64,000 nucleotides of DNA from assembly GCF_056712565.1 (NCBI RefSeq), contig NZ_CM160072.1; one strand, written 5' to 3'. Position numbers: made by a program. This document shows, piece after piece, positions 27,001 through 30,000 of the stretch (positions are counted from its first letter, which is position 1; each line of letters opens with the position of its first letter).

Positions 27001-30000
27001 ATGCCGCCACGGGAATCTTTCGGGACCACCAGGATATAAACTTTTTTCCTTGCTGTACCGGTGAAACTCCGCCATCACATCGTCAATGGTGACGCCAAGA
27101 ACCATCTTGCTGTCTTTACACCACTTGATGAATTGCCCTGGCGACGGCCAGAACGGAGACTCACTGGCGCGAGCGTGGCGCATACCAGCAGAAACCTGTT
27201 CACGGGTTCGGATCCCACCTTCGGCAAACGCAGCAATCCACTGCTGTTTTGCAGCAACTTCCTGCTCTGGCGTCTTCAGGTTGGTTACCACTGCCGCCGG
27301 AAACAGTTGTTTCAGCTGTTTGAAAAGGGCATCAACAAGTCTCTCTGCTGACATGTTCACCACATTGTCATTGTTGACGTACTGATGCTCATAACCTGAC
27401 ATGCGAGAAAGGGCTTCTCCGTCACGGTTTTGTATCGCGGTAAAAACGTTGTTCACAAGAAATCCTCCCATGCTTCAGGGCTGTTCCAGTGCGGAACGTT
27501 GTTATCAGGTAATGTTGATTGCTTCTGTCTGCTAATCTGCAGCCGCCTTGCCAGCTTCTGCTCCCACTGTGCCTGATGGTATGCCTTACCCTCAGCCATC
27601 CAGTAAATTCTGAACTCTGCAAGTTCCTGTGCCGTTGGCAGACTGTCCAGGTAGATCCCCTGCAATGAGCTTTTCCGAAGAAAGTCATCTGATGGTTGCC
27701 ATTGTTCATGCATGACAAATTTGCCTAATTGCCCTGGCCCACCAGGAGGAACAAAGTTATTCATCACGGCGTTGTTTGCGCCGGGGTCATTAGGCACAGA
27801 ATCCCCGCTTTTTGTCCTGCTCTCCCTCTCTTGGTTAAATGACTGGTTATATGACTGGTTCTGGATCCCGTTTTTGGGATCATTCAACATCCCGTTTTTG
27901 GGATCATTCAACATCCCGTTTTTGGGTATATTCCCGTTTTCGGTAACATTACCGTTTTCGGGTTCATTACCCCCTTCCCGGTTGCCTTTAATGTTCCCGT
28001 TTTTGGTTATATTAAGAGAGAAAACCCGCACTCTTTTCGTCGCTCCCTTTCTCTCTCCGGTATCTGAAATAAGCCCCATTTTCATGAGCGATATAAGCCC
28101 GGCCTGCACGGTTTTTTTATTCAGGCAAGTGTCTTTAACGAGGCGTTCTATGCTGGGGTAGCAGAGGTTATATTCATCGGCTCTGTCAGCCATCGAGAGC
28201 AGTATGAGCTTTAATGACGAGCTACCTGGATCTGTCTCCCAGGCCCAATCTGTTGCATGTCTGCTCATGATTAATCTCCGCTATCAGCTTGAATGTTGTG
28301 GGGTGGAATTAATCATGATCTGCTTAATCTCTGCCCTGATGCGACGGTTTGATTCCATGGTGCACTCAACACAGTGTCCGTTGTAAACCCAGCGTTCACT
28401 GTCATGTCCGTGCTTACATGGTTTTCCGGTGTAGTAGCGTTTAAGTCCGCGCTTTGCGGCATCAATACGTGTAATGATTTCCATGGTAAGCCCTGTTATT
28501 AGTATTGGGATTACGGTTATTTTGTGCTGACACAAAAAAAAGATCAACCAGATTTGGTTTTTTATTACCTTTGAGGTACGAATAGATATGAAAAGACCGC
28601 CGGGTGGCGGTCTACAGAGGGTTGTAGCTGGATATCATGAGTAGAAGAAGTATGCCAGTTCTGCTTTTGAGCGCAGCCATTGTCTTGTTTTACAGGCTTT
28701 AAAAAGCCCATTCATCAATACTTTACCTGGCATTTTTCGCTTACCTGTTAAGTGAGTCTGGATATAGTGACTCGTCGTTCCGGCTTCCTGTGCGAAGGCT
28801 TCACGCTCATCCGGAGTAAGTGCAAGCCAGTGCTTTTTGAAATCGAAATGTCCGTTATCGCTCATAGCTATTGCCTGATATTTATTTCAGATAATAAATA
28901 TTCACCCATAAGGTAACAAAAATCAAGGATAGTTACCTATGAGGTGCATTTACCTGTTGGGTAATATTGCTTTAAATTGAATCATCTACTGATTCATATA
29001 TGAGGCGATTTTCCAGAAAATGAAAAGTATCCAGGACGTCCGCAGGCAAAATCTCAACGACTTGATCGACCGTGAATTCAATGGTGTTCAGACGCGGATG
29101 GCAGAAAAACTTGGAACTCAGGCAAATCTGGTAAACCGCTGGGCTCTTGGCAAGAAGGTTATCGGCGACCAGGTTGCGCGAAAAATTGAAGCTGCCGCCA
29201 ATAAACCCCGTAACTGGCTTGATATCGATCGCTCGCTTTCTCAGGAAGGTTTTCAGCCTGTCGGCCCAAGCGACATTGGTCAGCTGGCGGCTCACAACCT
29301 GGAACGCTGGATGAGCGAAAGCCGCGACCTTTCAACACAGGGAAAACTTCACCGCGCATCCGGCGTCGCCCAGGTGACAATCAGCCGCCTGTTAAACAAT
29401 GAGGTCAGCGTTTCCATTTCCACCCTGGAGAATGTTGCATCCGCATTCGGGCGTCACGGCTATGAATTACTGATTCACCCGCACGACCCTGCGACTATCA
29501 ACTATGACCGCTCGCGCTACGCATTGTTACCCGAAACAGAGAAGGCAAAGATCGAAAGTTACATTGAATTTGTCATCAGCCAGAACGAAAAAAACAAACA
29601 ATAAAATCATATTTTTCAGTAAGTAAGCCGCCTCATGGCGGCTTTTTTATTGCCAGCAAGATTACCTTATGGGTAATTTTTTTAACTCATATCTATTGAC
29701 ATCAAACCAGATACGCATAATCATTACCTCAACGGTAACAGACCGAGGTAACAAATTATGCAGTGGAAAATCATCAACGGTTGGTACTGCGTTACTGCAT
29801 GCGGATTCATGAGCTGGAAGTTCCGCACCTTACAGGAAGGCATTAAGTGGGCTTTCGTCAGCAAAGAAGCTCGCGATGTGGCCAACGATAACGAGATATG
29901 GGAGGGCTGATAATGAACGTTAATCAGCAGAAAAATCTTCAAAAAATCATGCAGGCATTCGACAAGGACTACCACCTGTCAGAACAGCTATATGACCGAC

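What the first reader, a model, noticed from the sequence alone, without database searches (positions are those of the whole stretch)
27865..28006. Replication origin iterons embedded in the O-like initiator gene
Six direct repeats of CCCGTTTTTGG-type units at 18-24 bp spacing encode the NG/KNG-rich linker of the O-like protein. This is the same architecture as the lambda origin inside gene O and fixes the likely origin of the prophage.
Basis: partly seen in the sequence, partly recalled or inferred. Interest (0 to 1): 0.4.

Follow-up and report, generated by a model that had tools for sequence, protein, structure and literature searches.

The report
Prophage replication origin inside initiator gene
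The repeats are real and are very probably the initiator-binding sites of the prophage's replication origin, lying inside the initiator's own gene as in phage lambda; that layout is familiar, but the initiator here belongs to a different, unstudied protein family.

Summary
There are six CCCGTTTTYGG units at 27867-28006, with start-to-start spacing of 24, 24, 18, 18 and 45 nt, plus a decayed seventh unit. They lie in a 271-aa initiator gene (27453-28268, minus strand) of a phiV10-like E. coli prophage, upstream of a lambda-P homologue.

On the sense strand each unit is a dyad, ATCCC-AAAAAC-GGGAT.

Seventy relatives of the initiator's N-terminal domain were compared, each from a different species' reference genome:
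- 61 carry three or more CC-N6-GG dyads at the same place.
- In 50 the motif falls in two or more reading frames.
- Synonymous codon positions inside the motif are essentially fixed.

So selection acts on the DNA, not on the peptide. A second element follows in 50 of 53 loci: GAAYC repeats with a 12/13-nt period (window 27828-27863), starting exactly 6 nt after the last dyad.

Edwardsiella phage GF-2 joins this N-domain, the dyads and the 12-mers to a lambda-O C-terminal domain.

Differences from lambda:
- The initiator is HTH_36 plus a DnaT-like domain, not the Phage_rep_O family.
- The AT-rich tract is weak.

This is an ordinary kind of feature, a new and unstudied member of it. Origin activity itself is untested.

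The parts
27453..28268 (-). Initiator gene (271 aa). It has an N-terminal winged-helix domain, a disordered linker that carries the origin repeats, and a C-terminal DnaT-like domain.
   Evidence: ORF. Pfam HTH_36 at aa 18-67 (1.8e-10) and DnaT DNA-binding domain at aa 184-252 (1.2e-15), with no Phage_rep_O match. RefSeq annotates the identical gene as 'DnaT-like ssDNA-binding domain-containing protein'.
28008..28268 (-). Coding region for the N-terminal winged-helix domain (aa 1-87), the presumed iteron-binding domain.
   Evidence: In the AlphaFold2 model aa 1-80 have block-mean pLDDT of 94 or more and aa 81-90 have 87, with four helices and a two-strand wing. The nearest folds are MarR/ArsR-type winged helices. 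All 61 aligned family members match HTH_36.
27996..28007 (-). Iteron 1, the most distal unit. Sense strand: ACCAAAAACGGG.
27969..27983 (-). Degenerate iteron remnant. Sense strand: AACCGGGAAGGGGGT. This is the polymorphism hot spot among close relatives.
   Evidence: Read directly from the sequence. It varies among close relatives while the cores are nearly constant. Mean nucleotide diversity is 0.13 here against 0.03 in the cores (which has caveats).
27951..27962 (-). Iteron 2. Sense strand: CCCGAAAACGGT.
27933..27944 (-). Iteron 3. Sense strand: ACCGAAAACGGG.
27913..27928 (-). Iteron 4. Sense strand: TACCCAAAAACGGGAT.
27889..27904 (-). Iteron 5. Sense strand: ATCCCAAAAACGGGAT, with perfect 5-bp dyad arms.
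27865..27880 (-). Iteron 6, the most proximal unit. Sense strand: ATCCCAAAAACGGGAT, with perfect 5-bp dyad arms.
   Evidence: Across the family the proximal iteron is the most dyad-symmetric.
27828..27863 (-). Three 12-nt repeats. Sense strand: CAGAACCAGTCA TATAACCAGTCA TTTAACCAAGAG. They occupy the position of lambda's AT-rich tract and are proposed as the unwinding or single-strand capture element.
   Evidence: TRF finds period 12 at 27832-27860. GAAYC repeats at a 12/13-nt period occur in 48 of 61 relatives, in two reading frames in 42 of them. They start exactly 6 nt after the last iteron in 50 of 53 loci. Duplex stability shows a local minimum of -35.5 kcal/mol, against a regional mean of -40.4.
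27513..27731 (-). Coding region for the C-terminal DnaT-like domain (aa 180-252). It is presumed to bind single-stranded DNA and/or contact the helicase loader.
   Evidence: Match to E. coli and Salmonella DnaT C-terminal domain structures at E of about 7e-21. Foldseek gives TM 0.9 and 51-55% identity to 4ou6 and 6aeq. Block-mean pLDDT is above 90.
26671..27471 (-). Lambda-P-family helicase loader gene, overlapping the end of the initiator gene. RefSeq starts it at 27456.
   Evidence: Pfam Phage_lambda_P at 1.5e-56. It is 31% identical to lambda P, E 2e-35. Annotation.
28891..28919 (-). pR-like promoter candidate (TTGTTA-17-TATTAT), upstream of the cro-like, cII-like, initiator and P operon.
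   Evidence: A consensus scan only, so weak. Gene order.

Best explanation
The segment 27865-28007, together with the adjacent 27828-27863, is the replication origin of a phiV10-like temperate phage integrated next to guaA. It sits inside the initiator's own gene.

Shown by comparison:
- The CC-N6-GG dyads (ATCCC-AAAAAC-GGGAT here) are constrained as DNA.
- They travel with one particular winged-helix (HTH_36) N-terminal domain.
- They keep a fixed geometry: proximal units 24 nt apart, distal units 17-18 nt apart, and a second repeat, GAAYC at a 12/13-nt period, starting 6 nt after the last dyad.
- They lie in a coding segment whose product is predicted to be disordered, which would explain why the peptide can change freely.

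Inferred mechanism:
1. After derepression, transcription from the pR-like promoter produces the initiator.
2. Initiator dimers bind the dyads through the N-terminal winged helix. The array, with one A5 tract per unit, is bent into an O-some-like complex.
3. The stress opens the adjacent moderately AT-rich 12-mer repeats.
4. The opened strand is held by the initiator. The DnaT-like C-terminal domain is a known single-strand DNA-binding fold.
5. The C-terminal domain recruits the lambda-P-like loader carrying host DnaB.
For: The array is real and non-random.

Its position parallels lambda. In lambda the N-domain is aa 22-115 and the iterons begin at about aa 117, followed by the AT tract. Here the N-domain is aa 1-87 and the iterons span aa 87-135, followed by the 12-mers.

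Across 70 relatives, each from a different species' reference genome, with 41-87% N-domain identity:
- Motif density is 11 per kb in the linker against 0.32 per kb elsewhere.
- 61 of 70 have three or more copies, and 50 of 70 have the motif in two or more reading frames. For example it is read as SPKNG, IPKTE and SQKR in Vibrio salinus.
- In 76 motifs found by peptide alone, the third codon bases are fixed: NCC 76/76, A 76/76 and AAC 73/76. The same genes elsewhere show 23%, 71% and 44%.
- Geometry is conserved: a 6-nt offset to the GAAYC repeats in 50 of 53 loci and 24-nt proximal spacing.
- Iteron variants follow N-domain clades, for example CCAACAAYGG with the Acinetobacter 'DRKTVLKII' helix.

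Modularity also fits. C-terminal domains differ (DnaT-like, Phg_2220_C, DnaA_N). So do the downstream partners (lambda P, DnaB helicase, IstB-like, Toprim). Phage GF-2 fuses this N-domain, the iterons and the 12-mers (aa 1-136) to a lambda-O C-terminal domain that is 62% identical, E 2e-67.

Copy number varies among close relatives, with arrays of 123-219 nt. Lambda (4 iterons) and Stx phages (6) differ in the same way (PMC7466680).

There is no other repeat array in the prophage.

A near-identical phage genome exists as a 41-kb circular episomal record.
Against: There is no experimental test of binding or of origin activity for this phage or for any family member that I could find.

The element next to the iterons is only 57% AT. 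Its stability is -35.5 kcal per 30 nt (z about 1.4), against 78% AT and -30.3 (z 3.5) in lambda. The unwinding site is therefore not obvious.

The initiator shows no sequence similarity to lambda O, so the analogy rests on architecture.

Repeat homogeneity within one genome also reflects slippage. The codon-position statistics are not phylogenetically independent.

The roles assigned to the 12-mers and to the DnaT-like domain are conjecture.
Confidence: 0.8

Rival explanations
1. The repeats are only a slippage-prone, low-complexity peptide linker (NG-rich) with no function as DNA. The origin lies elsewhere.
For: The 24-nt units are 100% identical, which points to recent duplication. Copy number varies among close relatives. 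The encoded segment is predicted to be disordered.
Against: The same DNA motif is kept in all three reading frames, giving unrelated peptides. Synonymous positions are fixed. The dyad, the spacing and the 6-nt offset to a second element are kept across distant genera. The encoded residues change (PKNG, PKIG, PKFG, PIYG) while CCC-N6-GGG is retained.
Confidence: 0.04
2. The dyads are binding sites for the initiator, but they serve autoregulation, copy control or exclusion rather than initiation. Replication starts at another site.
For: In iteron plasmids the same sites also mediate control (PMC5043065). The adjacent tract is only weakly AT-rich. Stronger AT-rich stretches exist in nearby intergenic regions, for example 28875-28904 at -29.2 kcal.
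Against: No second cluster of the motif exists in the window, and there is no other repeat array in the prophage. The layout, with sites after the N-domain, a conserved adjacent repeat, then the loader gene, matches the mapped lambda origin point for point. The GF-2 chimera breaks exactly after the 12-mers, as expected if the N-domain, iterons and opening site form one functional unit.
Confidence: 0.1
3. The dyads act at the RNA level, as small hairpins in the early-right transcript that affect translation, pausing or termination.
For: ATCCC-N6-GGGAT can form a 5-bp hairpin. The terminator scan flags two sites inside the array on the plus strand (27875-27894 and 27899-27918).
Against: The flagged sites are on the antisense strand and are simply neighbouring dyad arms. 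In most relatives only CC/GG, a 2-bp stem, is kept, which is too short for a stable hairpin. The co-inheritance with a DNA-binding domain and clade-specific variants point to protein-DNA recognition.
Confidence: 0.03

Closest known systems
ori-lambda inside gene O of phage lambda, and the 6-iteron origins of Stx phages 933W and P27
   Same: - An array of 4-6 direct repeats, each an internal dyad with G/C arms and a central A tract (lambda ATCCCTCAAAACGAGGGA against ATCCCAAAAACGGGAT here), spaced about 18-24 bp apart.
- The array lies inside the initiator gene, directly after the DNA-binding N-domain.
- It is followed by a less stable tract.
- A P-family loader gene comes next.
- The gene order is cro/cII/O/P.
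- Iteron number varies among relatives.
(PMC7466680, PMC5043065)
   Different: - The initiator has no detectable similarity to lambda O and belongs to Pfam HTH_36, not Phage_rep_O.
- The C-terminal domain is DnaT-like rather than the lambda-O C-domain.
- The dyad is 2 bp shorter.
- Lambda's 78% AT purine-rich tract is replaced by 57% AT 12-mer direct repeats.
Iteron-plasmid origins (RK2 TrfA, F RepE, R6K pi): winged-helix Rep proteins, iterons and a DUE with 13-mer repeats
   Same: A winged-helix initiator and iterated binding sites next to short (12/13-nt) direct repeats at the presumed opening site. In those plasmids the Rep protein also binds one strand of the 13-mers in a sequence-specific way (PMC4081077, PMC10602881). 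That is the model I borrow for the GAAYC repeats.
   Different: Plasmid iterons are asymmetric and bind monomers, and they lie outside the rep gene (PMC5043065). Here the sites are dyads and lie within the gene. No sequence similarity to those Rep proteins was detected, apart from a marginal Pfam RP-C hit in one relative.
E. coli DnaT (primosomal protein I, replication restart)
   Same: The C-terminal 70-85 residues are 51-55% identical and superimpose at TM about 0.9 on the DnaT single-strand DNA-binding domain.
   Different: DnaT has no origin-binding winged helix and acts in PriA-dependent restart, not at an origin. Database names such as 'primosomal protein I' for the phage gene describe only this one domain.

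Membership tests
Lambda O / ori-lambda family (Pfam PF04492 Phage_rep_O initiators) | The initiator N-terminal domain matches Phage_rep_O or is similar to lambda O. | tested here: not met
   Lambda O scores 5.7e-36 against PF04492. The window protein has no hit even at E up to 1, and BLASTP against lambda O finds nothing meaningful.
Lambda O / ori-lambda family (Pfam PF04492 Phage_rep_O initiators) | The C-terminal domain is homologous to the lambda O C-domain, which binds P. | tested here: not met
   The window protein's C-domain is DnaT-like. A relative, GF-2, does carry the lambda-O C-domain.
Intragenic iteron-type phage origin (lambda-style initiator and helicase-loader module) | Three or more direct repeats with internal dyad symmetry, inside the initiator gene, between the DNA-binding domain and the C-terminal domain. 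| tested here: met
   There are six units plus one remnant at gene nt 259-404 (aa 87-135). The N-domain ends at aa 87 and the C-domain starts at aa 180.
Intragenic iteron-type phage origin (lambda-style initiator and helicase-loader module) | The repeats are under selection as DNA, as binding sites, rather than as a peptide. | tested here: met
   The motif occurs in all three reading frames (50 of 70 loci in two or more frames), synonymous sites are fixed, and enrichment is 34-fold.
Intragenic iteron-type phage origin (lambda-style initiator and helicase-loader module) | An AT-rich DNA unwinding element adjoins the iterons on the promoter-distal side. | tested here: inconclusive
   The tract after the last iteron is only 57% AT at -35.5 kcal per 30 nt (z about 1.4), against 78% AT and z 3.5 in lambda. 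A conserved 12/13-mer repeat occupies the position. Across the family the mean AT excess is +0.10 to +0.17 at 30-50 nt after the last iteron.
Intragenic iteron-type phage origin (lambda-style initiator and helicase-loader module) | A helicase loader or helicase gene lies immediately downstream, within the early-right operon. | tested here: met
   A lambda-P family gene overlaps the initiator's stop codon. The cro-like and cII-like genes and a pR-like promoter lie upstream.
Intragenic iteron-type phage origin (lambda-style initiator and helicase-loader module) | The initiator binds the repeats, and the segment supports autonomous replication when the initiator and loader are supplied. | not testable with these tools
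   This needs EMSA or footprinting and minimal-replicon cloning. There is only indirect support. A 41-kb circular episomal record holds the same phage. An 8.5-kb circular record holds only the immunity genes, a related initiator and P as replication-type genes.
DnaT / primosomal protein I | Full-length DnaT architecture, meaning an N-terminal PriB-interacting domain plus the C-terminal single-strand DNA-binding domain. | tested here: not met
   Only aa 180-265 match DnaT, corresponding to chain residues 85-170. The N-terminal half is an HTH_36 winged helix.

The most novel reading that the evidence does not exclude
This may be the first recognised example of a widespread, self-contained origin cassette. 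It would consist of an HTH_36 winged-helix domain, CC-N6-GG dyads, and a sequence-specific GAAYC 12/13-mer opening element at a fixed 6-nt offset. The cassette is found in phages and prophages of Gamma- and Alphaproteobacteria and Desulfovibrionales. It is exchanged as a unit among different helicase-recruiting C-terminal domains (DnaT-like, lambda-O type, DnaA_N, Phg_2220_C). In this reading the 12/13-mers are not a passive AT-rich tract. They would be recognised as single-stranded DNA by the initiator, as in iteron plasmids. The DnaT-like domain would link a phage origin to the host restart-primosome route of DnaB loading.
Probability: 0.3. Interest if true: 0.5.

Novelty: new member of a known kind. 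Interest (0 to 1): 0.3.

Why it matters
The result places the probable origin of a common E. coli prophage type. The gene is present in 423 of 5,426 complete E. coli genomes, and the type includes the O157 phage phiV10. That helps in building mini-replicons, in reading induction and copy-number data, and in correcting annotation: the gene is currently labelled 'primosomal protein I' or 'DnaT-like', which hides its role as an origin-binding initiator.

The family-wide pattern is a clean natural example of a coding sequence whose DNA, not its peptide, is the selected object, since one motif is read in three frames. It also gives a sequence rule for predicting origins in many unannotated phages: an HTH_36 domain, then CC-N6-GG dyads, then GAAYC 12/13-mers. 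Conceptually it extends the lambda paradigm rather than overturning it.

Tried and rejected
1. Per-site polymorphism among 47 distinct equal-length alleles was meant to show purifying selection on the iteron cores. It was confounded by alleles of equal length but different repeat register. Only the contrast between the decayed unit (diversity 0.13) and the cores (0.03), and the visual comparison, are usable.

2. A search for a lambda-like AT-rich unwinding tract found only modest minima flanking the array. The least stable DNA nearby is intergenic.

3. Direct similarity to lambda O was absent. A Pfam scan at E up to 1 gave no Phage_rep_O hit for the window protein.

4. Literature searches for the iteron sequence itself, for phiV10 with origin, for HTH_36 with phage and origin, and for DnaT with iterons found no description of this origin. 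One paper lists HTH_36 proteins in non-lambdoid Stx phages without mentioning iterons (PMC8951638).

5. The first viral-contig scan returned only near-identical relatives.

6. The terminator-like hits inside the array and the 149-aa plus-strand ORF at 27712-28161 were dismissed as by-products of the dyad repeats.

7. Foldseek placed the N-domain only among generic winged-helix regulators, with no specific initiator match.
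Full report
**Observation**

The repeats are present exactly where stated. 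Tandem Repeats Finder reports 27865-27926 (period 24, 100% match) and 27916-27971 (period 18). The repeat finder groups six copies with start-to-start spacing of 24, 24, 18, 18 and 45 nt.

CCCGTTTTYGG with up to one mismatch hits those six places and only one other site in the 64 kb, where about 2.5 hits are expected by chance. The 45-nt gap holds a decayed seventh unit at 27969-27983.

All units lie in the minus-strand ORF 27453-28268. There each reads as ATCCC-AAAAAC-GGGAT or a variant and encodes T/P-K/E-N-G. Apart from the adjacent 12-nt repeat at 27832-27860, no other tandem array exists in the prophage part of the window.

**Context**

- The window is E. coli DNA. It is colinear at 99.3% identity with strain 04-00955 from xseA-guaB-guaA into a prophage whose integrase abuts guaA.
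- The initiator gene is 96-99% identical to that of phage phiV10 and related podoviruses. It is present in 423 of 5,426 complete E. coli genomes.
- On the minus strand the order is: a pR-like promoter, a cro-like gene, a terminator-like site, a cII-like gene, the initiator, a lambda-P-family gene (Pfam 1.5e-56; 31% identical to lambda P), and DUF1064.
- A cI-like repressor is transcribed divergently.

**The protein**

It is not a lambda O homologue. Pfam gives HTH_36 (aa 18-67) and the DnaT DNA-binding domain (aa 184-252), with no Phage_rep_O match even at E up to 1. BLASTP against lambda O finds nothing.

An AlphaFold2 model built from 61 family sequences shows three parts:
- a confident winged helix (aa 1-80 with block-mean pLDDT of 94 or more; aa 81-90 at 87);
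- a low-confidence segment at aa 88-178 (block-mean pLDDT 42-54, mostly below 50);
- a confident C-domain (aa 180-252).

The C-domain superimposes on the DnaT single-strand DNA-binding domain at TM about 0.9 with 51-55% identity. The iterons (aa 87-135) and the 12-mers (aa 136-147) therefore lie entirely in the predicted disordered linker.

**Peptide repeat or DNA element?**

This was the central question. A scan of one genome per species returned 70 loci encoding relatives of the N-domain at 41-87% identity. They come from Enterobacterales, Vibrio, Acinetobacter, Pseudoalteromonas, Marinomonas, Sphingomonadales, Desulfovibrionales and others. Four deposited phages add to this set: GF-2, Vibrio phage Her, AP22 and PPompW.

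Almost all carry 3-7 copies of xCC-N6-GGx directly after the N-domain. The numbers are:
- Motif density is 11 per kb in the linker against 0.32 per kb in the rest of the loci.
- 61 of 70 loci have three or more copies.
- Because distal units are spaced 17 or 23 nt apart, 50 of 70 loci carry the same DNA motif in two or three reading frames. In Vibrio salinus, CCAAAAACGG is read as SPKNG, IPKTE and SQKR. In Acinetobacter, CCAACAAYGG is read as SPNNG, VPTTE and SQQW.
- In a test that did not use the DNA motif, 76 peptide occurrences of [PTSA][KE]NG were examined. Their third codon bases were NCC in 76/76, A in 76/76 and AAC in 73/76. Elsewhere in the same genes the figures are 23%, 71% and 44% (Fisher p of 3e-48, 1e-11 and 1e-21). 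These counts are not corrected for shared ancestry.
- Where the encoded residue changes (PKNG, PKIG, PKFG, PIYG), the CCC-N6-GGG dyad is retained and sometimes extended, as in ACCCAAATTTGGGT in AP22.

Selection is therefore on the DNA.

**Conserved architecture**

Anchoring on a second element revealed a fixed layout. GAAYC repeats with a 12 or 13-nt period occur within 60 nt after the last dyad in 48 of 61 loci, and in two reading frames in 42 of them. The first GAAYC starts exactly 6 nt after the last dyad in 50 of 53 loci.

Proximal dyads are 24 nt apart and distal ones 17-18 nt apart. The proximal dyad is the most symmetric. The window has the same layout: CCAAAAACGG, then GATCCA, then GAACCAGTCA TATAACCAGTCA TTTAACC (27828-27863).

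Dyad variants follow N-domain clades, for example CCAACAAYGG with the 'DRKTVLKII' helix. This fits cognate recognition but was not tested formally.

**Modularity**

C-terminal domains differ across the family: DnaT-like in 7, Phg_2220_C in 3, DnaA_N in 3, and many unassigned. Downstream partners differ as well: lambda P in 11, DnaB-type helicase in 2, IstB-like in 2 and Toprim in 2.

The GF-2 initiator is the most telling case. Its aa 1-136 (N-domain, dyads, 12-mers) are of the window type. Its aa 137-280 are 62% identical to lambda O aa 156-299, E 2e-67. The junction falls just after the 12-mers, where lambda's own origin ends. From my own knowledge of lambdoid hybrid genetics, origin specificity resides in the N-terminal half of O and P specificity in the C-terminal half. 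GF-2 is the natural equivalent for this family.

**Comparison with lambda**

Lambda's four iterons (ATCCCTCAAAACGAGGGA and variants, starts 20-24 nt apart) lie at aa 117-145 of O, after the Phage_rep_O domain. A 40-nt tract of 78% AT follows.

In lambda, O contacts the distal G residues of each arm and the A tract bends the DNA. Stx phages have six iterons, and the two proximal iterons plus the AT tract suffice for unwinding (PMC7466680). O, P and DnaB hold the opened strand (PMC5043065).

The array here shares the shape: G/C arms around an A5 tract, comparable spacing, the same position in the gene, and the same neighbours. Copy number also varies among 80 near-identical relatives, with arrays of 123-219 nt changing in steps of 18 or 24 nt.

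The clear difference is the opening element. The 40 nt after the last dyad are only 57% AT. The least stable 30-mer there is -35.5 kcal/mol (about 1.4 SD above the regional mean), against -30.3 (3.5 SD) in lambda. Across the family there is a modest AT excess 30-50 nt after the last dyad.

**Proposed mechanism**

Inferred:
1. Initiator dimers bind the dyads through the winged helix and bend the array.
2. The adjacent 12-mers open.
3. The initiator holds one strand, possibly through the DnaT-like domain, or through the winged helix as in iteron-plasmid Rep proteins (PMC4081077, title and abstract only).
4. The C-domain brings in the P-DnaB complex.

Shown: the DNA-level constraint, the co-inheritance with the N-domain, the geometry and the modularity.

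Not shown: binding, opening and initiation.

**Circumstantial support**

The same phage genome is deposited as a 41,027-bp circular extrachromosomal record, pHL15EC-2. An 8,461-bp circular record carries a related initiator with four dyads and a P gene as its only replication-type genes, alongside immunity genes. The latter would be a lambda-dv-like mini-replicon if it is not an assembly artefact.

**Rivals**

- A pure peptide or slippage repeat is excluded by the frame and codon data.
- A control-only role with the origin elsewhere cannot be excluded without experiments. It has nothing specific in its favour beyond the weak AT tract.
- An RNA-hairpin role is unlikely, because most relatives keep only a 2-bp stem.

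**Novelty**

The kind of feature, an iteron origin embedded in a phage initiator gene, is textbook. I found no description of this particular iteron or of origins for HTH_36-type phage initiators in the searchable literature.

I file it as a new member of a known kind. It is not a member of the lambda O protein family. Interest is modest. The family-wide cassette with its fixed-offset 12/13-mers is the part worth a specialist's second look.

Noticed in passing
window 27828-27863; also L087-L156 about 6 nt after the last dyad: A second conserved DNA repeat, GAAYC-N4-CA with a 12/13-nt period and 2-3 copies, follows the iteron array at a fixed 6-nt offset in 50 of 53 relatives. It is read in two different frames (QNQS and EPV). 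It occupies the place of lambda's AT-rich tract but is only moderately AT-rich.
   Followed up: yes
L003 (Edwardsiella phage GF-2) 1501-2343: This is a natural chimeric initiator. Its aa 1-136 are of the window type (N-domain, dyads, 12-mers). Its aa 137-280 are 62% identical to the lambda O C-terminal domain.
   Followed up: yes
L158 (NZ_CP148379.1, 8,461-bp circular record pZ1323HEC0067-2): This small circular E. coli record carries a related DnaT-like initiator with four dyads and a P gene as its only replication-type genes, next to dicA/dicC-like genes, ydaT, rem and hokD. It also holds a few unrelated genes (HNH endonuclease, an ATP-binding protein, DUF5677). It could be a natural lambda-dv-like mini-replicon or an assembly artefact.
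   Followed up: partly
L159 (NZ_CP079771.1, pHL15EC-2, 41,027 bp circular); also NZ_CP079768.1: A phage genome with an initiator N-domain 100% identical to the window's is deposited as a circular 'plasmid' in two complete E. coli assemblies. PLSDB lists no replicon type for it.
   Followed up: partly
window 20817-20893 (+): A tRNA-Arg gene (anticodon TCT) lies inside the prophage, among the late or structural genes.
   Followed up: no
window 2097-2278 (+): Adjacent Rfam matches to isrK (74 bits) and C4 antisense RNA (79.5 bits). This is the pairing seen in P1/P7-type and Salmonella prophage antirepressor control regions. It lies far from the immunity region studied here.
   Followed up: no
window 56193-56284 (-): A full-length sroE small RNA match (116.6 bits) in the host chromosome part of the window.
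   Followed up: no
window 29020-29604 (+): The cI-like repressor (194 aa) has an HTH_3 match at aa 106-147 and a weak, below-threshold YdaS-type HTH match at aa 21-61. It may therefore contain two HTH units and no recognisable peptidase domain.
   Followed up: no
window 27712-28161 (+) and 27875-27918 (+): A 149-aa antisense ORF with the repeated peptide 'IPFLGSFN' and two terminator-like calls are by-products of the dyad repeats. They are not separate features.
   Followed up: yes
L087-L156 initiator C-termini: Three family members carry a DnaA N-terminal domain (PF11638) as their C-terminal module, and three carry Phg_2220_C. This suggests alternative routes of helicase recruitment attached to the same origin-binding cassette.
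   Followed up: partly
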